DNA from: Escherichia coli phage AZ21
Strand: one strand, 5' to 3'
Length of the DNA: 64,000 nt
Sequence record: LC788708.1
The notes under the pieces were generated by a model. That model was given only the letters and a program-made list of their open reading frames with translations. It was not told the origin of the DNA and did not search any database. Position numbers and translations under genes: made by a program. Shown here in pieces: positions 5,240 to 38,782 of the stretch; position 1 is the stretch's first letter, and every line of letters begins with the position of its first letter.

Positions 5240-5410
5240 ATGAAATCAGTTGTAATTATTGGTGTTAACACTCGCGGTATTCGTACTACGAAAACTGTTA
5301 AAACTTCTAACGTTGCTGAAATCACTACGAACCCTAAAAAGTTTGATTTCGCCAAAGTCTCAGCAGTTATGACAGAACAATCTTTTAACCAAGCATTGGG
5401 GATGAAATAA
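5240..5410 (+). CDS. small hypothetical protein (56 aa)
   Basis: Short ORF directly behind promoter and GAGAGGAAGCGAAATATG RBS; stop overlaps next start (TAATG). Confidence 0.3.
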   Translation: MKSVVIIGVNTRGIRTTKTVKTSNVAEITTNPKKFDFAKVSAVMTEQSFNQALGMK

Positions 5411-5844
5411 TGGGTGAAAATATTCTAATGACCCTTCGTGGACTGCTTAGTCTAGCACGTACCCACGGTGATAAGGAGAGGGCACTTAATCTTCAGACCA
5501 TGATTGGTGATCTGCAACGTATTGATAAAGACATTGTTACTCGAACCGAGTTCGTAGCCTATCTGAAAGCTCAGATTAAGGCTCTAGAAAATGCAAAACA
5601 ACGCGCTATTAAAGTTGGTACGGAAGTTCCTACTGATGTAGACTATGAGCAACTGCTTTATTCCATGCTGCAAGAGTATCAGCCAAGTCAACTGACTGAA
5701 GTTCAGATTCGTGAGTATTTTGCAGAACTGGTTAAATTAAACCCAGGTATTACCAAAGCTCTATTAATGAAAACTATTAAGGCAGAATTTCCTGGACGTT
5801 ATGACGGTAAAACAACTGCTTTGATTGCTAGTGAATTTTTCTAA
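5410..5844 (+). CDS. hypothetical protein
   Basis: 144 aa ORF translationally coupled to upstream small ORF. Confidence 0.5.
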   Translation: MGENILMTLRGLLSLARTHGDKERALNLQTMIGDLQRIDKDIVTRTEFVAYLKAQIKALENAKQRAIKVGTEVPTDVDYEQLLYSMLQEYQPSQLTEVQIREYFAELVKLNPGITKALLMKTIKAEFPGRYDGKTTALIASEFF

Positions 5845-5852
5845 AAATTCAC

Positions 5853-5881
5853 TTGCTAAATGCTTATAAATTCTATATAAT
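5853..5881 (+). promoter_or_regulatory. T5-type promoter driving tRNA island
   Basis: TTGCTA-17-TATAAT about 80 nt upstream of first tRNA-like element. Confidence 0.6.
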
Positions 5882-5958
5882 ATATTCATAAATTAGATGA
5901 TAATTAGGCATCTAATTTATAAATAGTGGGGTGTGGAAATCACTTATGTAGTAACACT

Positions 5959-6030
5959 GCCGTCCTAGTATAATTGGTATTATCAAGCCGTAACTGGTGG
6001 AAGATGTAGGTTCGAATCCTACGGTCGGTA
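5959..6030 (+). tRNA. tRNA-like element (anticodon arm not resolved)
   Basis: GTAGG-TTCGAAT-CCTAC T-arm and 7-bp acceptor pairing (one mismatch) 70 nt downstream of promoter; no clean anticodon stem found by eye. Confidence 0.35.
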
Positions 6031-6532
6031 AGAACTGGATAACTGATGCTTTTAACGTAAAAGCTTCCGAGGTTAGTTGCGCACTGCCTAAACCACGCGG
6101 TAGTTGGTTCCAGACTAACCAACCAGTCTGCTGAATAGTTTTATTACGATTTAACTATGTCCAGGCTAAAGAAGAACTTTAGAAGGTATTCTAGGATAGT
6201 GAAGTTCTTTCTCCACATCGGAGTAGTTTTTCAAGCTATCCACAAAGTGGGAAATGCTGACATGAGAGATGTCACTAATGGTGCACAATAGCACAGGTAA
6301 TTCGCGATAATTCCTGTTGAGTAGCAGCAAAAGGCGGGAAGTCATGACCCCAAGCCTAACCGAGTCCTCAATATACCGCAGGGCATAACCACTAAGTCAC
6401 CCTGACTTAAACTGGAAAATAATAGACGTTACTGTATTTTGTCTTGAAATACTTAATGAGTGAGACTTATGACTCTCCCGGTATCGTCTGTATTTTTAAG
6501 AGTTTTTACGAGAGTTCTTAAAAATACTTAAA

Positions 6533-6607
6533 CGGGGTGTAGTCTAAGGGAGAGGCAGGAGTCTTCTAAATTCCTTTATGCAGGTTCGAATCCTGTCACC
6601 TCGGCCA
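6533..6607 (+). tRNA. tRNA-Arg (anticodon UCU)
   Basis: Acceptor CGGGGTG/CACCTCG, D-stem GTCT/AGGC, anticodon stem GGAGT/ATTCC with loop CTTCTAA, T-arm GCAGG-TTCGAAT-CCTGT, encoded CCA. Confidence 0.75.
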
Positions 6608-6641
6608 ATTTTATTAACTGTAACTAAAACAAAGGAAACAT

Positions 6642-7589
6642 ATGTTTAATACTAAAAATATGAAAGAATTGACTTCTGAGCAGAAAGTAATTCGTACTAT
6701 TAAACGTTGGGGTATTGGTGCTGTAGTTGGTTTAGCAGGTTTAATCCTAGCTTTTAATTCGTATACCATTGTTTCTGATGGTACGGTTAAAACCCAAACA
6801 TTCCTGGGTAAAGTAGACCCTAATCCAGTATTACCTGGTTTCCATCTTGTAAACCCGTTTGCATCTTTCGATACTTTTAGTACGAAAGATATTTCTATGA
6901 AACTGGATAAACTTCAGGTTCCTAGCCAGGATAAGTTTAAGTCTACAGTTGACATTACCGTTATGTTGCAGTTTGATGGTGCTAAAGCTCCTATTAACCG
7001 TGTTAACGCAGGTACTCAGGATCAAGCTCTGAACAAGTACGTTGAAGAGAAGATGCTGTCTACGATTCGTGAGTTTGGTAAGTCTGTACCAAAAGCACAA
7101 GATCTGTTCGACGCTAAGATTCAGGCTCAACTGCAAACCGCTATTCAGCAAGAAGTAGAAGAGTATGCGCGTCCTTATGGCTACACCGTTAAGCAAGTAT
7201 TCCTTCAGGATATTACTCTGCCACCGGTAATCATGGAACAGGTACAAAACACCAAAGTTCGTGAAGAACAAGTTAACGCTGCAAAAGCTGAACTAGCTCG
7301 TGTTGAACAAGAAGCACAGCAGAAAGTTAAGCAAGCTGAGGCTGATCGTTCTGCTCGTGAAAATATGGCAGTAGCTAACGAACGTGACGCAGATGCTAAA
7401 CTGTATGCGGCTAAGAAAGAAGCTGAAGCTAACACCGCTCTGCAGCGTACCATCACTCCAGAGATGATTCGCTGGAAACAGCTGGAAGTTGATATGAAAC
7501 GCGCTGAAAAATATCAGGGTGGCGTTCCTCAGACTGTTGTAGGTACTGGTTATGATGGCCAGATGATTATGGATATGCGTAATAAGTAA
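6642..7589 (+). CDS. SPFH/band-7 (prohibitin/HflC-like) membrane protein
   Basis: 315 aa; N-terminal TM helix then TQTFLGKV...PGFHLVNPF...TVDITVM SPFH-like core and long Ala/Glu/Lys coiled coil; followed by strong terminator. Confidence 0.65.
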   Translation: MFNTKNMKELTSEQKVIRTIKRWGIGAVVGLAGLILAFNSYTIVSDGTVKTQTFLGKVDPNPVLPGFHLVNPFASFDTFSTKDISMKLDKLQVPSQDKFKSTVDITVMLQFDGAKAPINRVNAGTQDQALNKYVEEKMLSTIREFGKSVPKAQDLFDAKIQAQLQTAIQQEVEEYARPYGYTVKQVFLQDITLPPVIMEQVQNTKVREEQVNAAKAELARVEQEAQQKVKQAEADRSARENMAVANERDADAKLYAAKKEAEANTALQRTITPEMIRWKQLEVDMKRAEKYQGGVPQTVVGTGYDGQMIMDMRNK

Positions 7590-10612: not shown

Positions 10613-10700
10613 GGGCGTTTATTCCGTAAGTGGTAGCGGAGGGGATTGTAAATCCCTGGTCATTGCGACTCGAGTGGTTCGACTCCATTAACGCCCACCA
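10613..10700 (+). tRNA. tRNA-Tyr (anticodon GUA), type II
   Basis: Acceptor GGGCGTT/AACGCCC, anticodon stem GGGGA/TCCCT with loop TTGTAAA, long variable arm, T-loop TTCGACT, CCA. Confidence 0.7.
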
Positions 10701-10717: not shown

Positions 10718-10909
10718 ATGTATATTGATCGGATAATTCAAGAAGCTGCAAATAGGGGTATTATACAGTTGGGTTCACCCGCTGATATAAATAAAGATCT
10801 AATATTAGAAAGCCTCACATTTGGTACAGCTAACTTTGGTCGCGATAGTAATCGTCGATATAGCTTGAAGTTATCTGCACTATCTTTTATCAAGTATAAC
10901 AAATTATAG
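10718..10909 (+). CDS. hypothetical protein
   Basis: 63 aa ORF between two tRNAs, RBS AAAGGTAAAGGATATG. Confidence 0.3.
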   Translation: MYIDRIIQEAANRGIIQLGSPADINKDLILESLTFGTANFGRDSNRRYSLKLSALSFIKYNKL

Positions 10910-10983
10910 TTAGTTGGCAGAGTGGTTATGCACCTCCTTCATACGGAGCGACTACAGTGGTTCAACTCCACTACTAACTACCA
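10908..10983 (+). tRNA. tRNA-Met/Ile-type (anticodon CAU)
   Basis: Acceptor AGTTAGT/ACTAACT, anticodon stem CTCC/GGAG with loop TTCATAC, T-arm AGTGG-TTCAACT-CCACT, CCA. Confidence 0.65.
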
Positions 10984-11166
10984 AAGATAAGATCAGGCCT
11001 TTGTGCCAGATCTCTGTGTTTATTAAACTGAATGGGACTATCAATCCACAAGCCGGACTACGAGCGATTATCGGGTATTCACTTAATAAACAGCCTGCCT
11101 CCCAGTTTTTATCTTGCTTCTGGGTTAACAAAAAGCTGAGCCAAATTCTAACATCAGGGAGATCTA

Positions 11167-11535
11167 ATGAAAGCATATCAAAGTCTTAAGTCTGGCGTAA
11201 TTAACCTTGTTCATGATAACCAGATCATTCAGCTATATTCTAAAGATGGTGAACTTAAACAAAAGGTTCTAGTTGAAGATCTAGAGGGTATCACACCTCA
11301 TTTTGACCCTGAGGCCTTCCGCATTGTAGATGTAGAAGTGGTTCCTCAAGTCGAGGGTGGTCAGCACCTAAATGTCAATGTGTTAAGCCGTGATCAGCTT
11401 TTGGATGCACAGAAACATCCTGAAAAATATCCTCAGTTGACCATCCGTGTCTCTGGCTATGCTGTTCGATTTAACGCATTGACGCGTGAACAACAGAACG
11501 ACGTTATTAGTCGTACATTTACTCAGGCGATATAA
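11167..11535 (+). CDS. grcA: GrcA-like autonomous glycyl-radical cofactor protein
   Basis: 122 aa; C-terminus [12 protein letters not shown]...[36 protein letters not shown] closely matches the E. coli GrcA/PFL glycyl-radical domain incl. RVSGY glycine site. Confidence 0.8.
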
Positions 11536-29177: not shown

Positions 29178-29200
29178 CAAATGAGAATGATTCTCATTTG
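29178..29200. repeat. perfect inverted repeat CAAATGAGAAT-G-ATTCTCATTTG
   Basis: 11-bp arms around a single central base. Confidence 0.8.
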
Positions 29201-29350
29201 TGGATTGGGGGCGCTTCCTGATAGTTGCGCCCCGTGATTATTATAGTAGGGGGCAACCGTTACGCTTTGCCCACTCCCGCCACTCATCTTGGTGCCTAGA
29301 CTTGCGACGGCGTACTAAAAACCGCTTGTACCAGTGATTAAACCATCGTT

Positions 29351-29554
29351 TCATAAATCCTCCTCCGGTAGTCGATGCGTGATCTTTTCCTCCTCCCCAT
29401 AGGAATCCACCAAATACTGATAATAACCATCGTGATCATAAATCACTTTATCATATTCCCCACGCTCGACCGCTTGCCGATTTTCCAACGTATCAGGCAC
29501 AAAGAAAGTATCAACGGTAACAGTAGTTTTAGTTACAACAATTTTATCACTCAT
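29351..29554 (-). CDS. hypothetical small acidic protein
   Basis: 67 aa; last gene of tightly packed minus-strand operon; start overlaps upstream tiny ORF. Confidence 0.45.
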   Translation of the reverse strand: MSDKIVVTKTTVTVDTFFVPDTLENRQAVERGEYDKVIYDHDGYYQYLVDSYGEEEKITHRLPEEDL

Positions 29555-29680
29555 AATGCCATCGCCCCTAGAATGAGAATGATTATCAATATCATTGTGA
29601 AGCCATTACCAAATCGTAAACGCTGGGAATGTTTCCCAGCGGTATTATTAGACTTATGGCTTTGTGTTTTTCGCCACCAG

Positions 29681-29881
29681 CTATTCACGGTAGACGCTCC
29701 ATCCGTCTAGCTTCCATTCTTCCCCCTTGCGAATATTGAAAAACCAATCATTAAAATTGTAACCATCTTCTGACATGATCACGCCGTTTTCTTTCATGTA
29801 CAAAAATTCATCACTAGTAAAATATTGATTACTAACTTTAAAACCTTGTTTCATTTTTTCTAGTGCTTCATCTTTAGTCAT
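29681..29881 (-). CDS. hypothetical small acidic protein
   Basis: 66 aa; ATGA-type overlap with upstream gene. Confidence 0.45.
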   Translation of the reverse strand: MTKDEALEKMKQGFKVSNQYFTSDEFLYMKENGVIMSEDGYNFNDWFFNIRKGEEWKLDGWSVYRE

Positions 29882-30222
29882 TGCGCCACCTTTCGAAACG
29901 CTGTTTCAATACTATCCGCAGTGGATTGAATATATGCGCCTTTGAGTATCAGCCGCTCGGTGCATATCTTGCGAAAAATATTAATAAAATCGTCCTCATT
30001 TTCTGCGATTAATGCCTCACCCATAACCTGAACGTCGCAAGATGCAAAGGTCAAAAATTGAAACGCTAGTTCACGGGCAACGACCGCATTGATTTTATAA
30101 TGCGCCTTGCCTTCATAGATATTAATAACGCCCTTATAAGCTGGCGAAAGCTGATTTAAGTAGTTTGCTAATAATGCCGGACGGCAATTAGCAACAAAAC
30201 GATTGCCCTCATAAATAACCAT
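29878..30222 (-). CDS. hypothetical protein
   Basis: 114 aa, minus-strand operon member. Confidence 0.5.
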   Translation of the reverse strand: MVIYEGNRFVANCRPALLANYLNQLSPAYKGVINIYEGKAHYKINAVVARELAFQFLTFASCDVQVMGEALIAENEDDFINIFRKICTERLILKGAYIQSTADSIETAFRKVAQ

Positions 30223-30349
30223 TTGATAGTCTCCCGATTAGATAGCCAGATAATAACATAAAGATCCCCAATAAAAGAGGATCATTCTTAAATAAGGTGG
30301 CGGTAAAACCGCCAACCATTGCAAGGAGAATAACAATAATGCTTTTCAT
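30209..30349 (-). CDS. small membrane protein (46 aa)
   Basis: MKSIIVILLAMVGGFTATLF hydrophobic ORF; ATG overlaps stop of upstream gene (ATGA) and its stop overlaps next start. Confidence 0.3.
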   Translation of the reverse strand: MKSIIVILLAMVGGFTATLFKNDPLLLGIFMLLSGYLIGRLSNGYL

Positions 30350-30558
30350 AGTACCCCACGAAACGCAGCGTAAAAGGTGGCAAAGTGTTTAACTGTTTCA
30401 GCAATCACGTTGCCGCGCTTATCAAATTTCTTTTCTGTAACACGAAAGGCATTTTTATTACGTGCTACATATTCGATTTTACAATCTTCCCGCTCGAACG
30501 TGTTAACATCCACCAGCTTAAAGCCTTTCGAACGTGCAAGAGAAACGTTGCGGATCAT
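30346..30558 (-). CDS. hypothetical basic protein
   Basis: 70 aa ORF in minus operon. Confidence 0.45.
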   Translation of the reverse strand: MIRNVSLARSKGFKLVDVNTFEREDCKIEYVARNKNAFRVTEKKFDKRGNVIAETVKHFATFYAAFRGVL

Positions 30559-30560
30559 TT

Positions 30561-30743
30561 TTATTCCCCTTTACTAGTCATGCAGCCCAGCAGATAAGAA
30601 AATACAGCGATGCCAGCACCAATAGTAACCATTGGTTTTATATTTACTAAACCGCAATAGGAATCCTGAATACCATAAGCGGTGGCGAAAAGAGTCAAAA
30701 TAGCGCCCAAGATACCCGCTAAAATAGCTCGAAAAATAACCAT
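30561..30743 (-). CDS. small membrane protein
   Basis: 60 aa with two hydrophobic helices; preceded by GGGGCG-loop-CGCCCC hairpin. Confidence 0.45.
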   Translation of the reverse strand: MVIFRAILAGILGAILTLFATAYGIQDSYCGLVNIKPMVTIGAGIAVFSYLLGCMTSKGE

Positions 30744-30792
30744 TTGTAATACTCCTCTAGTTAGTGGGGCGAAAGTAACGCCCCGTTATTAA

Positions 30793-31023
30793 TTACATTA
30801 AAATAATTTTTGCCGCTTGTTTTTTGGTACAGTGTTCCGCTTTCAGGGTGTCCAGCAAAAAGCCCGCCGTTTGCTGATCGATTTTATCGGCATTATATAG
30901 TTCTTGGATGGTGTTATAAGTTTTAGCAATGCCGTATTCTTGTACCATTTCTTGAATAATCCAGCGATTTGATACCCAGCCTTTACCAGTGAAAAGAGCG
31001 TCAGAAGAAGAGTAAGCAACCAT
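30793..31023 (-). CDS. hypothetical protein
   Basis: 76 aa from ATG with RBS GGAGGCTTAAAATG (minus strand); longer track ORF lacks RBS. Confidence 0.45.
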   Translation of the reverse strand: MVAYSSSDALFTGKGWVSNRWIIQEMVQEYGIAKTYNTIQELYNADKIDQQTAGFLLDTLKAEHCTKKQAAKIILM

Positions 31024-31086
31024 TTTAAGCCTCCAAATTTTTGGGAAAATTTTCAACCGTCCTCAAACGGTGTAAAGGCATTATAA

Positions 31087-31115
31087 CAAAAAAGGCCGCC
31101 ATAAAAGGCGACCTT
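31087..31115 (-). terminator. rho-independent terminator (minus strand)
   Basis: AGGTCGCC-loop-GGCGGCCT hairpin followed by TTTTTT on minus strand, right after the stop of 31130-31624. Confidence 0.5.
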
Positions 31116-31129
31116 TACAAAACTTTACA

Positions 31130-31624
31130 TTAAACTACTTGTAAGGATTCAATATTGAAACATCGTTTCAGTTCGTCATGCAAAACGGCATATTCATCCC
31201 ATCGGGTACTATCAGGAATATAAACAAGCTGTTTTAATCGGTTTGCATATATTACCGCTTTGTTATCAATTATCTCGACGCCACCATATTTAATAATTAA
31301 TTTCATGACGGAATTAATAGGATCGCCGCCGTTTACATATGCGCCGGATTTACTTAATTGATAATGATAAAGGCTTGCATATACGTTTTCATTTTCATAC
31401 CATTCGCCAGTCTCTTCGTCTTCATAGCCATCGCTACCAAAACGAGAAGCATTATCAACAGCCATTTCATGAGCAAAAGCGTCCAGATCCGTACCAGCAG
31501 GAACAAAATATTCCTCGGTATTCCCTTCCCCGCAATAGCCAGTATGACAATCGACTAAAATGATCATATCATGTTTAGCCTTGCTCACTTCCCCTAGCGA
31601 GAAGCCGTATTTTTCTTCTAACAT
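31130..31624 (-). CDS. hypothetical acidic protein
   Basis: 164 aa from ATG with RBS GGAGAC; acidic run DGYEDEETGEWYENENVY. Confidence 0.5.
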   Translation of the reverse strand: MLEEKYGFSLGEVSKAKHDMIILVDCHTGYCGEGNTEEYFVPAGTDLDAFAHEMAVDNASRFGSDGYEDEETGEWYENENVYASLYHYQLSKSGAYVNGGDPINSVMKLIIKYGGVEIIDNKAVIYANRLKQLVYIPDSTRWDEYAVLHDELKRCFNIESLQVV

Positions 31625-31688
31625 AATTAGTCTCCTATTAATTAACAAGGAAATAGTAAAGCGGGGAAATAATCCCCGCTAGATATTA

Positions 31689-31922
31689 TTACTCGTTTTC
31701 GGTGTTAGTGGTAAAAGTAGAGATATCGATACCTTTTACCATTTCATCGATCATCTCAGCGATGTTAAAACTTTGCACCATTTCTAACATTGCCGCTTCC
31801 ATAGCCGCCCCTGCTACCGCTTTCGCTTTCTGATTAGTCGGGGCGTACTGGTCAACCGCTACACTCAGCAGGTTAGCGATCACTACACGACCAATCGGCG
31901 TATCAATATAGCCTTTGATCAT
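31689..31922 (-). CDS. hypothetical protein, possibly C-terminal part of a frameshifted gene
   Basis: 77 aa ORF overlapping end of 31903-32694 by 20 nt; reachable by +1 shift at an A7 run. Confidence 0.4.
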   Translation of the reverse strand: MIKGYIDTPIGRVVIANLLSVAVDQYAPTNQKAKAVAGAAMEAAMLEMVQSFNIAEMIDEMVKGIDISTFTTNTENE

Positions 31923-32694
31923 AAACGGTGCTTTTTTTAGCCGCTACTTTCGTGATTTGAGTTAGTGCAATTTTACCAGCTTCCAGTTTTGCAGCGTTTA
32001 CAACAGCGGATTTATTAGCGGCAACGATATTAGCGATCTTGGTCATGGTATTTTTTCCTTTGTTTTCAGTAGTTTGAGTATTAACGCTTTGAGTGTTAGA
32101 GCTTACAACCTGTTTTTCAATATTGTCAACTGGTTTTAGTGTAAATCCAGCATTTGCAACGTTTGATTCATTCCCATACTCTAAATAATCACTAGGGATC
32201 AACATGTTGCCACTAGCGCGTTCAAAACATAACACGCCAGTTGTAGAAATTACATTACTATCAGCACTTTTGTAATTAGCTGATAGTTCACGCCAAATGC
32301 TAGTTAATAACGATCCGACACTATCAGTCCTGATATTACTTACTTTTGTTGCTGTTACTTGCTCTTTTTCTTGCACGTTATATAATCGCGCAATGTAACC
32401 ACTATTAGATTCACTATAACCAACAATGATAAAATCAATATCTCTTCCACGTTGATTGCGGAAAATGTGATAATCACGGTTGAAAATTACTAGCGCCCTT
32501 TTCTGGTCTAGTAATTGTGTGAAATCTTCAACTGAATAATGAGTACCCTCATCGTCTAAAATTCTATCATGAATCTTTTCGATAATAGTAGCGGTATGCT
32601 GTACGCTTGCCGCGCTACTACCCTCTAACAGATTGCGCAAACTGCCTTTAATAATAGTGGCGTTTGCTGGTACTGCAATTCTTACAGTAGACAT
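31903..32694 (-). CDS. hypothetical protein (first gene of minus-strand operon)
   Basis: 263 aa ORF, Ser/Thr/Asn-rich middle, Ala/Lys-rich C-terminus; ends just after A7 homopolymer. Confidence 0.5.
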   Translation of the reverse strand: MSTVRIAVPANATIIKGSLRNLLEGSSAASVQHTATIIEKIHDRILDDEGTHYSVEDFTQLLDQKRALVIFNRDYHIFRNQRGRDIDFIIVGYSESNSGYIARLYNVQEKEQVTATKVSNIRTDSVGSLLTSIWRELSANYKSADSNVISTTGVLCFERASGNMLIPSDYLEYGNESNVANAGFTLKPVDNIEKQVVSSNTQSVNTQTTENKGKNTMTKIANIVAANKSAVVNAAKLEAGKIALTQITKVAAKKSTVYDQRLY

Positions 32695-32960
32695 TTTATT
32701 TTGTCTCCCTCGTTAATCGGTGAGTGAATGATAAGGGTAATTTTCTAGCATAGGCAAATATTATTTTACTTTTTTATTTTCCTTGCCTAGCGTCTAATTT
32801 TATGCTAACCGCGCAGCGGTGCAATAAAGAGCAAACCACGGCGAAGCCACCAGCCCGACGCATTGAGGCTTTACTTTAATATTACCTTACAGCGTTTAGC
32901 TCGTTAGAATGCGTTTTGGGCCACTTAAAATTGATTGCAGTTGTTAACACTACCTTTCTA

Positions 32961-32980
32961 CCCTGTATATTTATACAGTG
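32961..32980. promoter_or_regulatory. LexA (SOS) box
   Basis: CCCTGTATATTTATACAGTG with perfect CTGT-N8-ACAG core, about 270 bp upstream of the first minus-strand gene. Confidence 0.55.
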
Positions 32981-32988
32981 GAATAACC

Positions 32989-33397
32989 TGTGGATAAGTC
33001 TGTGCAAAAGTCCTTATATCACCGCCTATCGTGTCAAGTTATTTTGTGCTGTGGAAAACATTGTGGATAACTTAAATGATAGTGCTTCTCACTTAGGCTA
33101 ATGATTTCTTATAGTTATTATTTCTCATTAATTTATAAGTATATTATATATTATCAAATAGTTAGTTGGCTAATGAGATTTTCCGTGATTAATAGTCTGC
33201 TAATAATTCAGGTCGTTACAATCCACCAGCATGATTATCATTCTAGCAATTATTAGTCTGCTATCTTTCCGATACATACTAACAAATAAAAGTCAATTAA
33301 TTTATTTCATAAAATAAGTAGTTATCCACTGGAAAATAAAAGTCAAGTGGATAACTAGGAAAATTTCATTTTTGCTTTTGGGGATAAGTTATCAACA
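32989..33397. promoter_or_regulatory. DnaA-box cluster
   Basis: TGTGGATAA at 32989 and 33062, TTATCCAC at 33322, GTGGATAA at 33347, TTATCAACA at 33389. Confidence 0.55.
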
Positions 33398-33799
33398 AGG
33401 CTAGAATGCGCCTAAAACGCTCCAGAACGCGATGAAGTTTTTAGCCACCCCATCATAAGGGGATAGGCCGTTTATCGCTGCCACGAGCTTTTTAGATTTT
33501 GTCAAGTAGGGGAAAGCAAATATAAATGAAAAAATTACTTGCCTATTTGCTTTATTTTGTGGTATTCGCGCCCGTTTCTTTTAATTTTAGGCCGTCGCCG
33601 GACGTGGTGCGGTGAATTTTGTCTTTACGTTTCTTTACAAAAATAAGGTTGCGCCATTTTCGGGAATCCCCTATTATTTATCACGTAGGGCGGCAATGAC
33701 GAACTACACGGCGGGAAGTTTACCGCCACGCTCTTTAAAAATTGGGTACATCTTAAAGCCTATCGGCGGTAAACTTATTTATTATAAGGAATCGACGAT

Positions 33800-34012
33800 A
33801 TGAAACAAACTTTATTGATCACTGGCAAGCCTATTAAGGCACTAGATAGCAAAACAAAAAATTTGTTGACAGTAGCGCAAAGATCGGTAAAATACCGATT
33901 CACGCAGTACAAGAAAGACCGCCAGCAAGGTTTAGAAATGATCTGGCGAAACATTATGATTGACTTGAAAGAAAATCATAAAAAACTGCAAAAAAATTAT
34001 TTGACAACCTAG
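33800..34012 (+). CDS. hypothetical ORF (doubtful)
   Basis: 70 aa ORF but contains internal TTGACA-17-TAAAAT promoter-like sites; may be non-coding. Confidence 0.2.
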   Translation: MKQTLLITGKPIKALDSKTKNLLTVAQRSVKYRFTQYKKDRQQGLEMIWRNIMIDLKENHKKLQKNYLTT

Positions 34013-34233
34013 CCGATAGGTTTTAAGATGTACCCAGTTCGATAAGAGCGATAACTTGATAAAATTTGACGGTCGGTGCTTACCATAATGCGCCCCGCCC
34101 CCTAACGGGATATAGCGGCCTACGTGGAGTTCTTTAAATTGATTATAGCGGCGAGAGGATTGTTACTTATTACCTGCTAGTATTTTCTAGTAGGTAATAA
34201 GTAACAATCCATCAAATAACTGGAGTTTATATT

Positions 34234-34485
34234 ATGCAAAACGTTATTACCGCGCCTAAAATTGGTCAATCCGTCTTTATTCCTTTCGTTACTAAAACGG
34301 ATGAATTAACCGGAAAGGCCGAACGTATTAAAGGTGCGGCGCTTATGCCGTTCGATACAATCGACGCGGTATATGCTGAAAATGAACGCAGTAACAACGG
34401 CAAGCCCGTTTTTAGCGTTCGCGTTAAATCCGGCGATGTTGTAAAGGTTGTTCAACGCAACGAAAAATGGGAAGCTGTGTTGTAA
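34234..34485 (+). CDS. pre-early hypothetical protein
   Basis: 83 aa, RBS AACTGGAGTTTATATTATG; followed by perfect 9-bp hairpin. Confidence 0.5.
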   Translation: MQNVITAPKIGQSVFIPFVTKTDELTGKAERIKGAALMPFDTIDAVYAENERSNNGKPVFSVRVKSGDVVKVVQRNEKWEAVL

Positions 34486-34583
34486 TTTAGTGTTAACTTT
34501 ATATCCCCCTTATTTCAGGGGGATATAACGATTAACATTAAGTTAATCTAATCCCTTAAATTAAACTAATAGGAGTTTTTACC

Positions 34584-34991
34584 ATGACTAACGCAAAAAC
34601 CGCAAAATTCGCATGGAATGAAGAAAACACTCAGAAAGCTGTTACCATGTACCAGCAGTTAATCAACGAAAACGGTTTAGATTTTGCAAATAGCGACGGC
34701 CTGAAAGAGATTGCAAAAGCAGTAGGCGCGGCCTCCCCCGTATCCGTTCGGTCAAAATTGACCAGTGCAAAAGCCTATCAAAAAAGCGATAAGCCGCGTA
34801 AAGTTGGCGGCGGTAGCTCTGTGCGTAAAGCTCACTATGTGCGAGTAATTGCAAAACACGCTATCGATTCCGGTATTATCAAAGACGCCGATGATCTGGC
34901 AAGCCTTGAAAGTGCTAAACTGGAAACGCTGGACGCGGTGGCGCAACTGTTAGGCGTTGCCGATGAAGTAAAACAAGCCGTAGGTGAATAA
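34584..34991 (+). CDS. pre-early hypothetical protein
   Basis: 135 aa, RBS AGGAG; followed by GCCCCCT-loop-AGGGGGC hairpin. Confidence 0.5.
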   Translation: MTNAKTAKFAWNEENTQKAVTMYQQLINENGLDFANSDGLKEIAKAVGAASPVSVRSKLTSAKAYQKSDKPRKVGGGSSVRKAHYVRVIAKHAIDSGIIKDADDLASLESAKLETLDAVAQLLGVADEVKQAVGE

Positions 34992-35081
34992 TAGTTATAC
35001 CTTGCCCCCTTCTAGTGAGGGGGCACTAATATAACTGTTTAGCGATAGTTATTTTCTTCCCTTAAATCAGGAGTTTTAAAA

Positions 35082-35279
35082 ATGGTTTTCTTCCCTACTG
35101 AATCTTTGATTCTAGGCTTGTTTATTATGGCGGCCTCATTATTGTTCGCTTATTTTCAGAATGATTTAGATTCGTATTATTTTAAACGTAAATCTAAATT
35201 AGCAAAACGTTTGGGCTTGCTTTGTTTTATCGCTGCCGTTGCCTGTGGTGTTAGTTCGAGTCTAGTACCATTAAATTAA
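35082..35279 (+). CDS. small membrane protein
   Basis: 65 aa with two hydrophobic helices; RBS AGGAG. Confidence 0.4.
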   Translation: MVFFPTESLILGLFIMAASLLFAYFQNDLDSYYFKRKSKLAKRLGLLCFIAAVACGVSSSLVPLN

Positions 35280-35366
35280 TGTTGCAAATTATAACGCCTA
35301 TTATTCGAGGCGTTATATTTGGCAATATTGCCATTATTAACCTAATCCCTTTAATGGAGTTTTATT

Positions 35367-37037
35367 ATGATTATTTCCGCAGAAAAACAAACCGTTATCC
35401 TGAAAATGGCCGCTGATTTCAATTTCTACGGTAAACGCCTGCGCGCCACTAAACTGGAGGTCTGCGACGATATTTCAAAAGCGGTCTACGATACAACGAA
35501 ACACTCCACCGCTATCTGCGACTGGCTGGAAGCAAATAAACCAGCGAAACCAAAAGCGGCAAAAGTAGCAAAAGCCATTAAAAACGGTGAGCGCCCCGAA
35601 GCGGCTGGGATTGTTTCTAGTACCGTGGAGCAGTGGGAAGTAAAACAAGGTAAACGCTTTATTATTACATCGATTCAGAATAATACTTTCCCGCATAAAA
35701 ACTTTTTAGCCTCACTGGAGCAATTTGCTAAATATATCGGGGCTGATTTGCTCGTTTCTAAGTATATTTATAATAAAAACGGTTTTCAAAATGGGGAAGG
35801 TGCTGACGGAATCAAATATGATTCCGCGTTTGATAAATATATTTGCAGCAAAAACGTGTTTTTGAATAACCGCCGCTTTGCTTTCATGGCTGAAATTAAT
35901 GTTTTGCCTACCGCAGATTATCCGCTTTCTGGATTCGCAGAAACTGCAACGGCTTTAAATATTGAAGGTCTGGCAATTGGTCACGCTAAAATTACCGCTG
36001 AAAGCGTACCAGCTTTAAAAGGTGAAGTAGTGCGCCGTATGTACTCAACCGGAACGGCAACGCTCAAAAACTACATTCAGCAGAAAGCAGGACAAAAGGC
36101 CGAGGCGCTGCATAACTTCGGTGCGCTTATTGTTGAGTTCGACGAGGACGGGGAATTTTTTGTACGCCAGCTTGAAACGATGGACGAAAGCGGGGTATTT
36201 TATGATCTGAATGTGTGTGCTACTCCTGCCGGATGCTATGAAACATCGGGGCATGTTTTAGGCTTGCAGTATGGCGATATTCACGCCGAAAAATTAGATG
36301 AGGAGTGCGCCGCCGCGTCATGGGGGCATGGTGATACTTATGGGCTAGTAGATATTCTTAAACCAAAATATCAGTTTGTGCATGACGTGCATGATTTTAC
36401 ATCGCGCAATCATCATAACCGCGCATCGGGTGTATTCCTAGCAAAACAGTACGCCGCCGGACGTGATAAGGTTATTGATGATCTTATCGATACGGGGCGC
36501 GTGCTGGAATCAATGGAGCGTGATTTTTCTCAAACAATCATTGTTGAATCGAATCACGATTTGGCGTTATCCCGTTGGCTTGATGATCGTAATGCTAACA
36601 TCAAAGACGATCCAGCAAACGCAGAACTGTATCACCGCCTGAATGCTGCAATTTACGAGGCAATCGGTGAACATGACGAAACGTTCAACGTGCTAGATTA
36701 TGCGCTGCGCAAGGTTGCAGGTTGTGAGTTTAACGCCATTTTCCTGACCACTGACCAATCTTTCAAGATTGCAGGCATTGAATGCGGCGTACACGGTCAC
36801 AACGGCATTAATGGCAGTCGTGGCAATCCCAAACAATTTAAGAAATTGGGCAAGTTAAACACTGGTCATACTCATACGGCAAGCATTTACGGCGGGGTAT
36901 ATACCGCTGGCGTAGCTGGTAGTCTGGATATGGGTTACAACGTTGGCGCGTCAAGCTGGACGCAAACTCATTTAATTACCTATGCAAACGGTCAGCGCAC
37001 TTTGATTGACTTTAAGAACGGTAAATTTTTTGCGTAA
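35367..37037 (+). CDS. A1: A1-like pre-early protein, calcineurin-like metallophosphatase (Mre11/SbcD-type nuclease fold)
   Basis: 556 aa (size of the T5 A1 product as I recall it); GDIH, ESNHD, HGHNG, GHTHT metallophosphatase motifs in order; sits with dmp-like gene. Confidence 0.7.
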   Translation: MIISAEKQTVILKMAADFNFYGKRLRATKLEVCDDISKAVYDTTKHSTAICDWLEANKPAKPKAAKVAKAIKNGERPEAAGIVSSTVEQWEVKQGKRFIITSIQNNTFPHKNFLASLEQFAKYIGADLLVSKYIYNKNGFQNGEGADGIKYDSAFDKYICSKNVFLNNRRFAFMAEINVLPTADYPLSGFAETATALNIEGLAIGHAKITAESVPALKGEVVRRMYSTGTATLKNYIQQKAGQKAEALHNFGALIVEFDEDGEFFVRQLETMDESGVFYDLNVCATPAGCYETSGHVLGLQYGDIHAEKLDEECAAASWGHGDTYGLVDILKPKYQFVHDVHDFTSRNHHNRASGVFLAKQYAAGRDKVIDDLIDTGRVLESMERDFSQTIIVESNHDLALSRWLDDRNANIKDDPANAELYHRLNAAIYEAIGEHDETFNVLDYALRKVAGCEFNAIFLTTDQSFKIAGIECGVHGHNGINGSRGNPKQFKKLGKLNTGHTHTASIYGGVYTAGVAGSLDMGYNVGASSWTQTHLITYANGQRTLIDFKNGKFFA

Positions 37038-37093
37038 TTAAATTATTTCCCTAGCGGCTTGAAATACAGCCGCTATTACAGGAGCTAAATTAA

Positions 37094-37372
37094 ATGGCTA
37101 TTAAAATTAATCTTCCCAATATTAAAAACACCGCTGATATATGGTCGATTGATACTATATTGCGTGGCACTGTATACCGTAATTTAAAAGATAATAATTG
37201 TTATATTTATCAAAATGAATTAAACGGCCATATTTACATAATCGAGTCCGATGGTTTTTGTTCTTTTGAGACTGATTATGAAGCGCAAGATCATATACAG
37301 GCAAATGATATTCCTGACGTATGGAAAGAAACAAACCTTGCTTTTGTTGTAAGTCTTGAAGCTAACAAATAA
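37094..37372 (+). CDS. pre-early hypothetical protein
   Basis: 92 aa ORF downstream of A1-like gene, RBS AGGAGCTAAATTAAATG. Confidence 0.45.
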   Translation: MAIKINLPNIKNTADIWSIDTILRGTVYRNLKDNNCYIYQNELNGHIYIIESDGFCSFETDYEAQDHIQANDIPDVWKETNLAFVVSLEANK

Positions 37373-37410
37373 ATTAAATATCTTATTAAATTAATTGGAG
37401 TTTTACAAAT

Positions 37411-37803
37411 ATGAAAAAGCAAAATATTCCATTCGATCGCGCTCAGTCTTCTATTGTTCTGGTTTATTCTAATGGTGAGCGTTACCACGTCGAGGCGGGG
37501 CACGTTATTGATGAATTATTAGATTTCAATGACGCTTTACAGGTTACTACCTTTGCCTACACGCAAGGCCGCGCAAGTAGTTACATTAAGGCCGCAGGCG
37601 TTTATGTTGACACGGTGAAACAAGAAACGATTATCATCGACGCAGTAAAATCCGGTCTAGCCTTTGCAGTTGTCGCGCCTTGCCCCTCTTGTCTTGATGA
37701 TCAGCTAACGAGTGCGAAAGTATACACCTGCGCGGGCATTCGTTCCCATGTATCAGGAGAGGATATTAGTTTTATCGCTGATGCGTTGGCTTATGGTCTT
37801 TAA
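37411..37803 (+). CDS. pre-early hypothetical protein (possible A2 equivalent)
   Basis: 130 aa ORF downstream of A1-like gene; assignment by position only. Confidence 0.4.
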   Translation: MKKQNIPFDRAQSSIVLVYSNGERYHVEAGHVIDELLDFNDALQVTTFAYTQGRASSYIKAAGVYVDTVKQETIIIDAVKSGLAFAVVAPCPSCLDDQLTSAKVYTCAGIRSHVSGEDISFIADALAYGL

Positions 37804-37883
37804 TAGTTGATTTATTATTGCCCGCTGATAGATAGCGGGCAATGCTGGATAAACTACATCCCTTTAATGGAGAACGTAACAAA

Positions 37884-38618
37884 ATGAATCAAGTTAAAAC
37901 GAATATTTCCCGTAACTTCCCGCATATTTCCCGCGTCATGATCTGGGATCTTGATGGCACTATCGTTAATTCATTCCATCGTGTAGCGCCTTGCTTTGAT
38001 AGTGAGGGTAATCTAGATTTAAATAAGTATAAGAATGAGGCTTGCAAACATGATTTAATAATGCAGGATACTTTATTGCCTTTGGTGGAATATATGCGCC
38101 AATGCATGAATGACGCAAATACTTTAAACATTATTTGTACCGCTCGATTAATGAGCAAATCGGATTATTATTATTTGCGCAAACAAGGCTTGCGAGGGCG
38201 TGGGGATAGCAATATCCGCGTGTTTTCCCGCGACACGCTGCATAAATATTTTGAAGCTGATAAGGTTAGCGAGATATACCACAGTAAAGACGCAGTTTAT
38301 AAATCGTATTACTTTGAATTATTTAAACAGCTATATCCGAACGCTGATTTCACAATGATTGATGATCATAAAGGTGTATTATCAGCGGCGGCGTCATACG
38401 GATTTAAAACGCTAGACGCGCAAGCCGTTAACGATATTCTATCAATCGGCGTGGCATTGATAGGCGGAACCTTTATTGATGAATCTCTCGATGATGATAA
38501 TGATTATCAGTTCCTAGCCGATCGATTGAAATTATGTTGGGAAAGTATGACCGAAGAAGAACGCGCAGAATATAGTTGCAGCCCGCAACAATATATTGAG
38601 AAATTAAAAGTTGCGTAA
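37884..38618 (+). CDS. dmp: HAD-family 5'-deoxyribonucleotidase (dmp-like)
   Basis: VMIWDLDGTIVNS (HAD motif I DxDGT); RBS GGAGAACGTAACAAAATG; pre-early context. Confidence 0.65.
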   Translation: MNQVKTNISRNFPHISRVMIWDLDGTIVNSFHRVAPCFDSEGNLDLNKYKNEACKHDLIMQDTLLPLVEYMRQCMNDANTLNIICTARLMSKSDYYYLRKQGLRGRGDSNIRVFSRDTLHKYFEADKVSEIYHSKDAVYKSYYFELFKQLYPNADFTMIDDHKGVLSAAASYGFKTLDAQAVNDILSIGVALIGGTFIDESLDDDNDYQFLADRLKLCWESMTEEERAEYSCSPQQYIEKLKVA

Positions 38619-38782
38619 TAATTAAAGTTGAAATAGTTTCATCCTGCAATTAAAATGGTTGCGGGATGAAACAATTACCCTGCTAATAGTAACGGGGGTG
38701 GCGGTTAGCAGACTAAGTATTCTCCCCCAACCCACTGGACACACCTCCATGTGTAATCCTATGAAATTTGGCAAAAGTCAAA

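What the first reader, a model, noticed from the sequence alone, without database searches (positions are those of the whole stretch)
5959..6532. tRNA-like element with canonical T-arm but no clean anticodon arm, followed by a 500-bp ORF-free spacer
The promoter at 5853 transcribes into a sequence with a perfect GTAGG-TTCGAAT-CCTAC T-arm and acceptor pairing, but I could not fold a standard anticodon stem. The next 500 bp up to tRNA-Arg lacks credible ORFs. This could be a degenerate tRNA, a small RNA, or processing scaffold.
Basis: seen in the sequence. Interest (0 to 1): 0.45.

Follow-up and report, generated by a model that had tools for sequence, protein, structure and literature searches.

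The report
Large phage RNA with tRNA-shaped arm
The "odd tRNA plus empty spacer" is one gene: a roughly 640-base, strongly folded non-coding RNA of T5-like phages, listed in GenBank as rnaX with unknown function, that carries a tRNA-shaped arm lacking an anticodon and resembles the large "ornate" RNAs that other phages keep next to their tRNA genes.

Summary
The window is a T5-like phage (100% identical to E. coli phage AZ23). Positions 5959-6030 have tRNA-like acceptor, D and T arms but no anticodon arm, and nothing up to tRNA-Arg looks coding.

The interpretation needs widening. The whole stretch from the early promoter (5853-5881) to hairpin 6490-6527 matches the region annotated in T5, DT57C, BF23 and Salmonella phage 5 as "rnaX: stable RNA with unknown functions". 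It is conserved across Demerecviridae (Tequintavirus, Epseptimavirus, Sugarlandvirus, Hongcheonvirus, Myunavirus).

Compensatory base changes support:
- the tRNA-like arms;
- a 12-bp helix (5939-5952 with 6034-6047) that carries the tRNA-like domain at its tip;
- many helices of the 3' domain.

The "anticodon arm" differs in every lineage, and in EPS7-type phages the whole tRNA-like domain is replaced by another hairpin. It is therefore a structural module, not a decoding or decaying tRNA.

Rfam holds no family for this RNA. Its closest analogues in kind are GOLLD and ROOL, and the T4 RNAs C and D. Function is unknown. I infer a stable early RNA that presents a tRNA mimic, possibly self-associating through a near-invariant palindromic loop.

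The parts
5853..5881 (+). Early sigma-70-type promoter (T5 P16-17): TTGCTA, 17-nt spacer, TATAAT
   Evidence: 10 of 12 matches. Annotated as promoter P16-17 in AJ604531 and AY543070. A TTGCTT-N17-TATAAT equivalent is read directly from the sequence of Pectobacterium phage DU_PP_V.
5888..5920 (+). P1: hairpin at the 5' end, at or near the transcription start (12 bp, 9-nt loop). Its tip carries a ~160-nt insertion in Salmonella phage 5 and many other T5-like phages, and a longer insertion in the Pectobacterium phages.
   Evidence: MFE -10.3 kcal/mol, z = -5.4. Insertion seen. Basal stem AAAUUA/UAAUUU is kept in DU_PP_V and My1.
5921..5938 (+). Highly conserved 5' 'anchor' (AAAUAGUGGGGUGUGGAA). 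Its pairing partner is unresolved.
   Evidence: Near-invariant in all lineages. A candidate GUGG/CCAC pairing with 6093-6096 or 6389-6392 could not be tested because those positions do not vary.
5939..5952 (+). P2, 5' strand. Pairs with 6034-6047.
   Evidence: 12 pairs, 98.9% of cells paired, 7 pairs with changes on both sides. Also predicted by single-sequence MFE.
5959..6030 (+). tRNA-like domain. Acceptor 5959-5965 with 6023-6029. D stem 5968-5971 with 5980-5983, with G18 G19 in the loop. Anticodon-arm region 5985-6001: only a 3-bp stem and a 6-nt loop GUAACU. T arm 6006-6022. A73 at 6030. No encoded CCA.
   Evidence: Rfam tRNA 35.5 bits, anticodon arm unaligned. (no ARAGORN call). (covariation in acceptor, D and T; 13% pairing at canonical anticodon-stem positions).
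6034..6047 (+). P2, 3' strand (ACUGGAUAACUGAU)
6048..6064 (+). H2 hairpin, GCUUUU-AACGU-AAAAGC
   Evidence: helix 154-159 with 165-170. Pair 158:166 occurs as CG, UA and AU; pair 155:169 as CG and GC.
6071..6124 (+). H3 hairpin (6071-6088), conserved UAAACCACG (6089-6097), and H4 hairpin GUUGGUU/AACCAAC (6104-6124)
   Evidence: Read by eye. H3 is GGCAG/CUGCC, and GACAG/CUGUC in phiR2-01. H4 is GUUGAUU/AAUCAAC in GSW6. Not formally counted.
6125..6241 (+). Variable middle region. Different lineages carry alternative hairpin modules here. Block 6168-6240 is shared with two of the Klebsiella phages examined (Uniso31 and Sealy).
6242..6488 (+). Conserved 3' domain. Hairpin 6258-6274. Stem 6293-6297 with 6313-6317. 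Stem 6332-6339 with 6348-6357, capped by the palindromic loop AGUCAUGA (6340-6347). Hairpin 6364-6384. CCA/UGG (6389-6391 with 6413-6415) enclosing the invariant hairpin AAGUCA-CCC-UGACUU (6394-6408). A three-way-junction region at ~6422-6488 that varies by lineage.
   Evidence: 66 pairs, 98% of cells paired, 16 pairs with changes on both sides against 6.4 +/- 1.4 in shuffles and 1-5 in slid controls. The covariance model finds the domain in Klebsiella and Yersinia phages.
6490..6527 (+). Hairpin D: an A/U-rich stem of 16-17 bp with a conserved loop. It is the 3' boundary of the unit and the most conserved element (89.5-100% identical to the Pectobacterium phage copy in the records listed).
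   Evidence: z = -4.1. 16 of 16 pairs kept in all lineages, with G.U to G-C or A-U changes. Identity figures.
6533..6607 (+). tRNA-Arg (UCU) with encoded CCA, presumably co-transcribed. RNase P cleavage at its 5' end would leave the RNA ending 5 nt after hairpin D.
   Evidence: The cleavage step is inferred.

Best explanation
Positions ~5888-6532 are the rnaX gene of a T5-like phage. This is a single, stable, highly structured non-coding RNA of about 640 nt. It is transcribed from early promoter P16-17 and, in this phage, presumably together with tRNA-Arg(UCU).

Shown by the sequence and comparisons:
- The RNA starts with a hairpin (P1) and ends with a long hairpin (D).
- Its 5' part forms a 12-bp helix (P2) whose tip carries a tRNA-shaped domain. 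That domain has an acceptor stem, a D/T-loop elbow and a T arm, but no anticodon arm and no encoded CCA.
- Its 3' half is a conserved multi-helix domain. It contains a hairpin loop with the palindrome UCAUGA, which is part of GUCAUGAC.

Inferred mechanism (not shown):
- The terminal hairpins, together with RNase P cleavage at the 5' end of tRNA-Arg, give a nuclease-resistant mature RNA.
- The tRNA-like arm presents a tRNA elbow and acceptor to host tRNA-binding machinery. Candidates are RNase P, CCA-adding or T-loop-modifying enzymes, or the ribosome. This could either tether the RNA there or allow cleavage into pieces that P2 holds together.
- The 3' domain carries the main, still unknown, activity, possibly as a homodimer or oligomer through loop-loop pairing of the palindrome, by analogy with GOLLD and ROOL.

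The tRNA-like arm is an exchangeable module rather than the core, because EPS7-type phages replace it with a different hairpin.
For: Identity:
- 100% identical to phage AZ23, 99% to Salmonella phage 5 and 93% to T5. In T5, DT57C, BF23 and phage 5 the region is annotated 'rnaX, stable RNA with unknown functions'.

Conservation:
- 558 phage records match.
- The same layout (promoter, tRNA-like element, about 500 nt, hairpin D, tRNA-Arg) occurs in Pectobacterium phages DU_PP_V and My1, Klebsiella Sugarlandvirus phages and Yersinia phiR2-01.

Structure:
- The tRNA-like acceptor, D and T helices covary, while canonical anticodon-stem positions are 13% paired.
- 5' model (P2, tRNA-like arms, H2): P2 has 12 pairs, 98.9% paired, 7 with changes on both sides. 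The whole model has 17 such pairs against 6.5 +/- 1.4 in shuffles and 1-3 in slid controls.
- 3' domain: 66 pairs, 98% paired, 16 with changes on both sides against 6.4 +/- 1.4 in shuffles and 1-5 in slid controls.
- The covariance model of the 3' domain finds full-length matches in Klebsiella phages (70-80 bits) and Yersinia phiR2-01 (100 bits), none of which were used to build it.
- MFE z-score is -3.4 for the whole RNA on the + strand.

Non-coding:
-.

Module swapping:
- The anticodon arm is built differently in each lineage, and the whole domain is replaced in EPS7, GSW6, SH9 and Sds2.

Palindromic loop:
- GUCAUGAC is present in 47 of 48 distinct sequences, and sits in a hairpin loop.

The unit ends at hairpin D:
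- ORFs are inserted between hairpin D and tRNA-Arg in other phages.
Against: - No expression, end-mapping or stability data were available. 'Stable RNA' rests only on a GenBank note, and no paper in the searchable library mentions rnaX.
- The structures tested were derived from the same alignments, so the controls are favourable by construction. The out-of-sample test kept only some helices. In the Pectobacterium phages only hairpin D was found by the model.
- The tRNA-like element alone is not thermodynamically exceptional (z = -0.67).
- The palindromic loop never varies, so pairing between loops has no covariation support. In My1 the palindrome is broken (GUCAUGCC).
- The tRNA-like arm is dispensable in some lineages, which weakens any mechanism that centres on it.
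- No protein partner was identified. The upstream YqeY-like match is below threshold (18 bits against a cutoff of 27).
Confidence: 0.8

Rival explanations
1. A decaying pseudo-tRNA followed by a functionless intergenic spacer left over from turnover of the tRNA cluster.
For: ARAGORN does not call the element. The anticodon arm is unpaired. The acceptor stem has a U.U mismatch. T5 tRNA regions are mosaic and rich in mobile endonuclease genes.
Against: The acceptor, D and T arms keep pairing through compensatory changes across four genera. The 'spacer' has near-invariant blocks and 16 covarying pairs. The flanks form a covarying helix around the element.
Confidence: 0.03
2. A functional but unusual decoding tRNA, for example a suppressor or a frameshifting tRNA with an odd anticodon loop.
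For: The Rfam tRNA score is above the gathering threshold. ARAGORN calls the T5 copy tRNA-Ser(act) and the smaug-type copy tRNA-SeC(tca). Several genome records annotate it as tRNA-OTHER, Sec, Pro or Leu.
Against: The loop is 6 nt in the window, 3-5 nt in DU_PP_V and phiR2-01, and a long bulged hairpin in Sealy. No anticodon is conserved. There is no encoded CCA. Pair 1:72 is G.A in most lineages. The whole domain is absent in EPS7-type phages. The conflicting 'identities' assigned by annotation pipelines are themselves a sign of artefact.
Confidence: 0.03
3. A long leader or processing scaffold whose only role is to deliver and mature tRNA-Arg. The tRNA-like element and hairpin D would act as RNase P and RNase III/E entry sites.
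For: The region lies between a strong promoter and tRNA-Arg. Hairpin D ends 5 nt before the tRNA. tRNA-like 'punctuation' is a known processing device (my own knowledge).
Against: In smaug-type, My1 and phiR2-01 phages an ORF sits between hairpin D and tRNA-Arg. In Klebsiella phages two ORFs do, and the distance is over 500 nt. The RNA is conserved all the same. Other T5 tRNAs need no such leader. 600 nt of covarying structure is far more than processing signals require.
Confidence: 0.07
4. The region encodes one or more small proteins. AKFV33 orf078 corresponds to window 5997-6134, and various 'hypothetical proteins' are annotated here in other genomes.
For: ORFs of 44-60 aa exist and several genome records annotate CDSs in this region.
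Against: ORF lengths, frames and strands differ between lineages. Substitutions show no codon periodicity. Variation is of the compensatory, base-pair type. The 45-aa ORF overlaps the T arm of the tRNA-like element.
Confidence: 0.03
5. A DNA-level element, such as a replication origin, a protein-binding array or a recombination hotspot, rather than an RNA.
For: There are perfect palindromes (GTCATGAC and hairpin D). The region is mosaic and mobile genes insert around it.
Against: It lies directly downstream of a consensus early promoter and on the same strand as the tRNAs. G.U-compatible variation, for example in hairpin D and P2, fits an RNA and not a DNA duplex. The + strand folds better than the - strand. 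The tRNA-like tertiary-interaction nucleotides are kept.
Confidence: 0.03

Closest known systems
T5 rnaX ('RNAX, stable RNA with unknown functions'; GenBank AY543070, AJ604531, NC_027356, NC_042564)
   Same: Same locus, same flanks (promoter P16-17 upstream, tRNA-Arg downstream), and 93-99% nucleotide identity. The window's element is this gene.
   Different: The annotation gives only coordinates and a note. The structure, the tRNA-like domain, the family-wide distribution and the modular variants are described nowhere that I could search. The window copy lacks the ~160-nt P1 insertion of phage 5 and the 83-nt duplication of T5.
GOLLD (RF01998) and ROOL (RF03087), large ornate RNAs of phages and prophages
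   Same: Encoded by phages next to tRNA islands. Several hundred nucleotides long with elaborate conserved structure. GOLLD has a conserved 3' region and a variable 5' region, and tRNAs are sometimes present in its linker. Function is unknown (PMC12286853). rnaX likewise has a conserved 3' domain, a variable 5' and middle part, and a covalently embedded tRNA-like unit.
   Different: No match to either covariance model, even at E <= 10. The hosts are Enterobacteria phages rather than Lactobacillales, rumen, marine or mycobacterial sources. The embedded unit is a tRNA mimic without an anticodon arm rather than a real tRNA. Oligomerisation is untested.
T4 RNAC and RNAD (species 1 and 2 RNAs)
   Same: Phage RNAs transcribed from the tRNA gene region, with biological role unknown (PMC3014915, PMC9697503). 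From memory, they lie beside the T4 tRNA-Arg gene and have tRNA-like features. That is a lead, not something tested here.
   Different: They are much smaller (about 120-140 nt, from memory) and are classed as late RNAs. BLAST hits of the window region to phages outside Demerecviridae covered only the tRNA-Arg part.
Canonical tRNA (RF00005), and tRNA mimics such as the tmRNA tRNA-like domain, YrlA/Y RNA and mascRNA
   Same: An acceptor stem, a T arm with a UUCGAAU loop, a D loop with GG, and U8, A14 and A21 are all consistent with an L-shaped elbow.
   Different: There is no anticodon arm and no encoded CCA. The acceptor ends continue into helix P2 of a larger RNA. This is the opposite topology to tmRNA and YrlA, where the rest of the RNA replaces the anticodon arm (my own knowledge). 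No Rfam match to tmRNA or Y RNA.

Membership tests
Canonical tRNA | 7-bp acceptor stem | tested here: met
   5959-5965 with 6023-6029: 6 of 7 positions pair in the window (one G.U, plus a U5.U68 mismatch). Compensatory A-U, U-A and U.G variants occur in relatives.
Canonical tRNA | T arm with a T-psi-C-type loop, and a D arm with G18 G19 | tested here: met
   GTAGG-TTCGAAT-CCTAC. T stem 99% paired, with UA to CG covariation. GG is conserved in the D loop in nearly all variants.
Canonical tRNA | 5-bp anticodon stem with a 7-nt loop carrying an anticodon | tested here: not met
   13% pairing at canonical positions. The loop is 6 nt in the window. It is a 3-5-nt loop or an extended hairpin in other lineages. 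The arm is left unaligned by the Rfam model.
Canonical tRNA | Recognised by a tRNA gene finder, with a 3' CCA that is either encoded or added | tested here: not met
   No ARAGORN call in the window. The 3' sequence is GGUCGGU-A-AGAAC, so no CCA is encoded. Post-transcriptional CCA addition cannot be tested here.
T5 rnaX (GenBank-annotated stable RNA) | Lies between promoter P16-17 and tRNA-Arg(UCU), and is homologous to the annotated rnaX of T5, phage 5 and DT57C | tested here: met
   93-99% identity with the same flanking features.
T5 rnaX (GenBank-annotated stable RNA) | Accumulates as a stable RNA in infected cells | not testable with these tools
   Only the depositors' note is available, and no paper is held.
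GOLLD / ROOL | Match to the family covariance model (conserved sequence and structure) | tested here: not met
   No hit in the window at gathering score, at E <= 10 over 5850-6650, or at E <= 1 in eight related loci.
GOLLD / ROOL | Phage-encoded, near a tRNA island, large, with extensive covarying structure | tested here: met
   The family description is from PMC12286853.
GOLLD / ROOL | Homo-oligomeric RNA-only assembly | not testable with these tools
   The only pointer is a near-invariant palindromic hairpin loop, which is a suggestion and not a test.
tmRNA | tRNA-like domain formed by the 5' and 3' ends, plus a tag reading frame | tested here: not met
   ARAGORN finds no tmRNA and Rfam gives no hit. 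The topology is the reverse.

The most novel reading that the evidence does not exclude
rnaX is the founding member of a new class of large 'ornate' phage RNAs in the Demerecviridae that infect Enterobacteria. It would be functionally analogous to GOLLD and ROOL. It would self-assemble through its near-invariant palindromic loop, and use a built-in, exchangeable tRNA-mimic arm to engage the host's tRNA-processing or translation machinery early in infection. Because T5 and E. coli are genetically tractable, this would make the long-unknown function of such RNAs directly testable.
Probability: 0.25. Interest if true: 0.8.

Novelty: new variant of a known kind. Interest (0 to 1): 0.62.

Why it matters
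Large structured phage RNAs beside tRNA genes, such as GOLLD, ROOL and T4 RNAC/RNAD, have no known function and come mostly from hosts that are hard to work with.

Here a comparable RNA sits in T5, a classical E. coli phage. It has hundreds of sequenced relatives that provide natural module swaps:
- the tRNA-like arm present, altered or replaced;
- insertions at the hairpin tips;
- mobile genes inserted at its 3' border.

That makes structure-function tests straightforward, for example deletions, arm swaps, palindrome mutants, pull-downs and cryo-EM.

There are practical consequences too. Annotation pipelines currently call this element tRNA-Sec, Ser, Pro, Leu, OTHER or Undet, or place 'hypothetical proteins' over it. 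An Rfam family would remove these errors from hundreds of therapeutic-phage genomes.

Tried and rejected
- **Metagenome scan** with GTGGGGTG-N9-ACTTATG. The pattern was too loose. None of the 120 loci carried the extended motif in context.
- **IMG/VR scans** returned only the T5-like isolates already seen, plus DU_PP_V, which was also already held. One scan was wasted on a pattern mistyped by one base.
- **Genome scans.** A 22-nt motif from the 3' domain gave 0 hits in 185,579 species genomes. A gapped 18-base pattern gave only chance hits in unrelated taxa. So there is no sign of the RNA in bacterial chromosomes or prophages at this stringency.
- **Rfam** at permissive thresholds on the window and eight related loci gave nothing except tRNA.
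- **Adding distant sequences** to the 3'-domain alignment with MAFFT gave unreliable alignments. This was replaced by a covariance-model search.
- **Long-range partners** for the 5' anchor (GUGG with CCAC) could not be supported, because the positions are invariant or inconsistent.
- **An H-type pseudoknot** around 6104-6131 was considered and dropped, because the smaug-type sequence does not keep the second stem.
- **A YqeY-like tRNA-binding partner** encoded upstream. The Pfam match is below threshold and absent from the Pectobacterium phage neighbour.
- **Literature.** No held paper mentions rnaX. One apparent hit was the author name 'Cornax'. The paper on T5 deletion mutants (PMID 29512629) is not held.
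Full report
**What the window is.** The 791 bases around the finding are 100% identical to E. coli phage AZ23 and 99.6% identical to AKFV33. In total 558 phage records match, nearly all of them Demerecviridae (T5-like) phages of Escherichia, Salmonella, Klebsiella and relatives. The window carries a typical T5 tRNA region with six tRNA genes.

**Checking the observation.**
- The promoter is real as a consensus match: TTGCTA-17-TATAAT at 5853-5881, 10 of 12. It corresponds to the annotated promoter P16-17 of T5 and Salmonella phage 5.
- At 5959-6030 the Rfam tRNA model scores 35.5 bits (gathering score 29; E about 1e-3 for the whole window). It aligns only the acceptor, D and T arms, and the 18 nt of the anticodon arm are skipped. 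ARAGORN makes no call.
The acceptor stem pairs at 6 of 7 positions (one G.U, plus a U5.U68 mismatch).
- Between 6031 and tRNA-Arg (6533-6607) the longest ORFs are 44-60 aa.

**It is an annotated but uncharacterised gene.** In AJ604531 (Salmonella phage 5), AY543070 (T5), DT57C, DT571/2 and the BF23 tRNA-region record, the whole stretch from the promoter to tRNA-Arg is annotated as 'rnaX: RNAX, stable RNA with unknown functions'. I found no paper in the searchable library that mentions it. Other genome records annotate the tRNA-like part inconsistently, as tRNA-OTHER, Undet, Sec, Pro or Leu, or they place short 'hypothetical proteins' over the region. ARAGORN itself calls the T5 copy tRNA-Ser(act) and the smaug-type copy tRNA-SeC(tca).

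**The tRNA-like element is conserved, but never as a decoding tRNA.** I collected 21 distinct variants from Tequintavirus, Epseptimavirus, Sugarlandvirus (Klebsiella) and Hongcheonvirus (Pectobacterium). The acceptor, D and T helices stay paired and show compensatory changes:
- T-stem pair 50:64 (tRNA numbering) is UA in 13 variants and CG in 8.
- Acceptor pairs 6:67 and 7:66 occur as CG, UG and UA.
- The 5:68 position, a U.U mismatch in the window, is A-U in T5 and U-A in one relative.

By contrast, the canonical anticodon-stem positions pair in only 13% of cells. The arm is built differently in each lineage:
- Window and T5: a 3-bp stem with a GUAACU loop.
- DU_PP_V and My1: a 6-bp stem with a 3-nt loop.
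- Yersinia phiR2-01: a 6-bp stem with a GCGAA loop.
- Klebsiella phage Sealy: an extended bulged hairpin (85 nt in all).
- smaug-type phages: a UUCACC hexaloop.

In EPS7, GSW6, SH9 and Sds2 the entire tRNA-like domain is replaced by an unrelated hairpin of about 45 nt (CCAGA...UCUGG), between identical flanks. The elbow nucleotides (U8, A14, the GG of the D loop, the UUCGAAU T loop) are kept. No CCA is encoded, whereas the neighbouring tRNA-Arg does encode CCA.

**The flanks pair with each other.** Window 5939-5952 pairs with 6034-6047 to form helix P2. On 15 diverse sequences its 12 pairs are 98.9% paired, and 7 of them show changes on both sides. For example, UAGU/ACUG becomes UAAC/GUUG, UGAU/AUCA, CGAU/AUCG or UAGC/GCUG, and UAU/AUA becomes CAC/GUG in DU_PP_V.

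The whole 5' model (P2, tRNA-like arms, hairpin H2) has 17 pairs with double changes. That compares with 6.5 +/- 1.4 in column shuffles (0 of 500 reached it) and 1-3 when the partners are slid by 1-3 columns. Single-sequence folding of 5939-6064 gives the same P2, cloverleaf and H2.

So the tRNA-like element is an arm at the tip of a helix of a larger RNA. It is joined through AACACU (5953-5958) and AGA (6031-6033).

**The '500-bp spacer' is the conserved body of that RNA.** BLAST shows blocks shared across the family: 5921-6054+, 6168-6240, 6395-6421 and 6490-6528. Multiple alignment shows near-invariant motifs separated by lineage-specific modules: GGAGUCAUGACC, AUAACCAC, AGUCACCYUGACU, UAAACUGGAA and hairpin D.

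For the 3' domain (6242-6529), RNAalifold on 15 Markadamsvirinae sequences gives 66 pairs, 98% paired. Sixteen pairs have changes on both sides, against 6.4 +/- 1.4 in shuffles (0 of 500) and 1-5 in slid controls. In hairpin 6364-6384 all five pairs covary.

A covariance model of this domain finds full-length matches in sequences that were not used to build it:
- Klebsiella phages: 70-80 bits.
- Yersinia phiR2-01: 100 bits.
- Salmonella phage bux (L014): 139 bits.
- Pectobacterium phages: only hairpin D is found.

In those out-of-sample sequences some helices are kept, partly through compensatory changes. These are the stem under the palindromic loop, the AAGUCA-CCC-UGACUU hairpin, parts of the 3' junction, and hairpin D. 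Others are replaced. The evidence for a common 3' core is therefore good for Markadamsvirinae and Sugarlandvirus. For Mccorquodalevirinae it is only partial, although manual inspection there shows the shared motifs GGAGUCAUGACC and AACCGU.

The whole RNA folds better than shuffles (z = -3.4 on the + strand, -2.7 on the - strand).

**Not coding.** ORFs inside the unit differ in length, frame and strand between lineages, and they cluster only where the nucleotide sequence is conserved. Variable positions are evenly spread over the three codon phases (p = 0.92 and 0.84).

**Boundaries.**
- The 5' end is hairpin P1 (5888-5920, z = -5.4), right at the expected transcription start. Its tip holds a ~160-nt G+C-rich insertion in phage 5 and many relatives, and a different one in the Pectobacterium phages.
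- The 3' end is hairpin D (6490-6527, z = -4.1). It is the most conserved element of all: 89.5-100% identical between the Pectobacterium phage copy and the matching records listed.
- In the window hairpin D ends 5 nt before tRNA-Arg. In smaug-type phages a 169-aa ORF lies between the two. In My1 and phiR2-01 it is a T5orf172/MUG113 endonuclease-like ORF, and in Klebsiella phages two ORFs.

The unit is therefore the stretch from P1 to hairpin D, not 'a leader of tRNA-Arg'.

**What it most likely does.**

Shown:
- A conserved, covarying, non-coding transcription unit under a consensus early promoter.
- A tRNA-mimic arm.
- Stable terminal hairpins.
- A hairpin loop (6340-6347) that carries the palindrome UCAUGA, part of GUCAUGAC, present in 47 of 48 distinct sequences.

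Inferred:
- RNase P processing of tRNA-Arg, together with the two terminal hairpins, would yield a nuclease-resistant RNA. This would fit the depositors' 'stable RNA' note.
- The tRNA-like arm offers the elbow and acceptor surface that is recognised by RNase P, the CCA-adding enzyme, T-loop modification enzymes and the ribosome (established knowledge about the tRNA elbow as a recognition site). It may tether rnaX to one of these. Alternatively it may be a cleavage site whose products P2 holds together.
- The palindromic loop could mediate loop-loop dimerisation.

None of these steps could be tested here. The loss of the arm in EPS7-type phages shows that it is an accessory module.

Viable T5 deletion mutants in the tRNA region remove 29191-32442 and 30661-38625 (PMC11464382). 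Neither reaches rnaX at 40848-41566 of AY543070. This is compatible with retention of the gene but is not evidence that it is essential.

**Comparison with what is known.** The element is a member of 'T5 rnaX' by position and identity. It is not a tRNA, because the anticodon arm was tested and is not there. It does not match GOLLD, ROOL, tmRNA, Y RNA or any other Rfam family.

In kind it resembles GOLLD and ROOL: phage-encoded, near tRNA islands, several hundred nucleotides long, with elaborate structure. GOLLD in addition has a conserved 3' and a variable 5' part, with tRNAs sometimes inside its linker (PMC12286853). It also resembles T4 RNAC and RNAD, which are small RNAs from the T4 tRNA region with unknown roles (PMC3014915, PMC9697503).

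It differs from all of these in sequence, in its host range (Enterobacteria phages), and in carrying a tRNA mimic without an anticodon arm as an integral, helix-capped arm.

No copy was found in bacterial genomes with a strict motif, nor outside T5-like isolates in IMG/VR.

**Verdict.** The finding points to a large structured phage RNA that GenBank names but nobody appears to have characterised and that Rfam lacks. I rate it a new variant of a known kind (large ornate phage RNAs associated with tRNA clusters), with moderate-to-high interest, mainly because it sits in a tractable model phage.

Noticed in passing
L170 (Pectobacterium phage My1) 9821-10366, minus strand; L169 (Yersinia phiR2-01) ~1719-2270: An ORF with a T5orf172/MUG113 (GIY-YIG-related) endonuclease-like domain is inserted exactly between hairpin D of rnaX and tRNA-Arg. 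In My1 the annotated CDS overlaps the tRNA-Arg gene. It looks like a mobile homing-type gene that uses the rnaX/tRNA boundary as an insertion site.
   Followed up: partly
L004 1187-1696, L012 1281-1790, L014 1830-2339, L167 1450-1959: A conserved 169-aa ORF with no Pfam or PHROG match sits at the same place (after hairpin D, before tRNA-Arg) in smaug- and GSW6-type Epseptimaviruses. Its function is unknown.
   Followed up: partly
L001 (Salmonella phage 5) 71-232; equivalent to window 5897-5910: A ~160-nt G+C-rich insertion sits in the tip of the 5' hairpin P1 of rnaX in phage 5 and many T5-like phages (the '2 pieces' BLAST hits). It has no Rfam match and may be an extra structured domain.
   Followed up: partly
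L003 (T5) ~1143-1225; between window 6408 and 6409: T5 itself carries an ~83-nt insertion that duplicates the AGUCACCUUGAC-UAAACUGGAA motif of the 3' domain and adds a hairpin.
   Followed up: no
window 5410-5844 (+): The gene directly upstream of rnaX (T5.081 homologue, annotated 'tRNA amidotransferase' or YqeY-domain protein in several genomes) gives only a sub-threshold Pfam YqeY match (18.2 bits against a cutoff of 27). YqeY/GatB-type domains bind tRNA (my own knowledge), so it is a speculative candidate partner for the tRNA-like arm. The corresponding neighbour in Pectobacterium phage DU_PP_V has no such match.
   Followed up: partly
L004 and L005 117-599; L014 717-1199: In smaug-type phages an HNH-endonuclease-like ORF (annotated P-TflX-like) is inserted between the YqeY-like gene and rnaX. 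This means both borders of rnaX attract mobile nuclease genes.
   Followed up: no
window 10613-10700 and 10908-10983: ARAGORN calls tRNA-Tyr and a second tRNA-Met here, but neither reaches the Rfam tRNA gathering score in the whole-window scan. The second overlaps a 91-aa ORF (10914-11189).
   Followed up: no
window 11167-11535 (+): A 122-aa ORF ends in a glycyl-radical-type motif (…RVSGYAVRF…). From memory this resembles GrcA/YfiD-like 'spare part' proteins or the C-terminus of anaerobic ribonucleotide reductase.
   Followed up: no
window 6490-6527 and the equivalent site in all loci: Hairpin D is more conserved than any other part of the region, including its loop (UUUUACGAGAG). It matches on both strands in the covariance-model search because it is nearly palindromic. 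It could be an RNase III or protein recognition site, or a DNA-level signal.
   Followed up: partly
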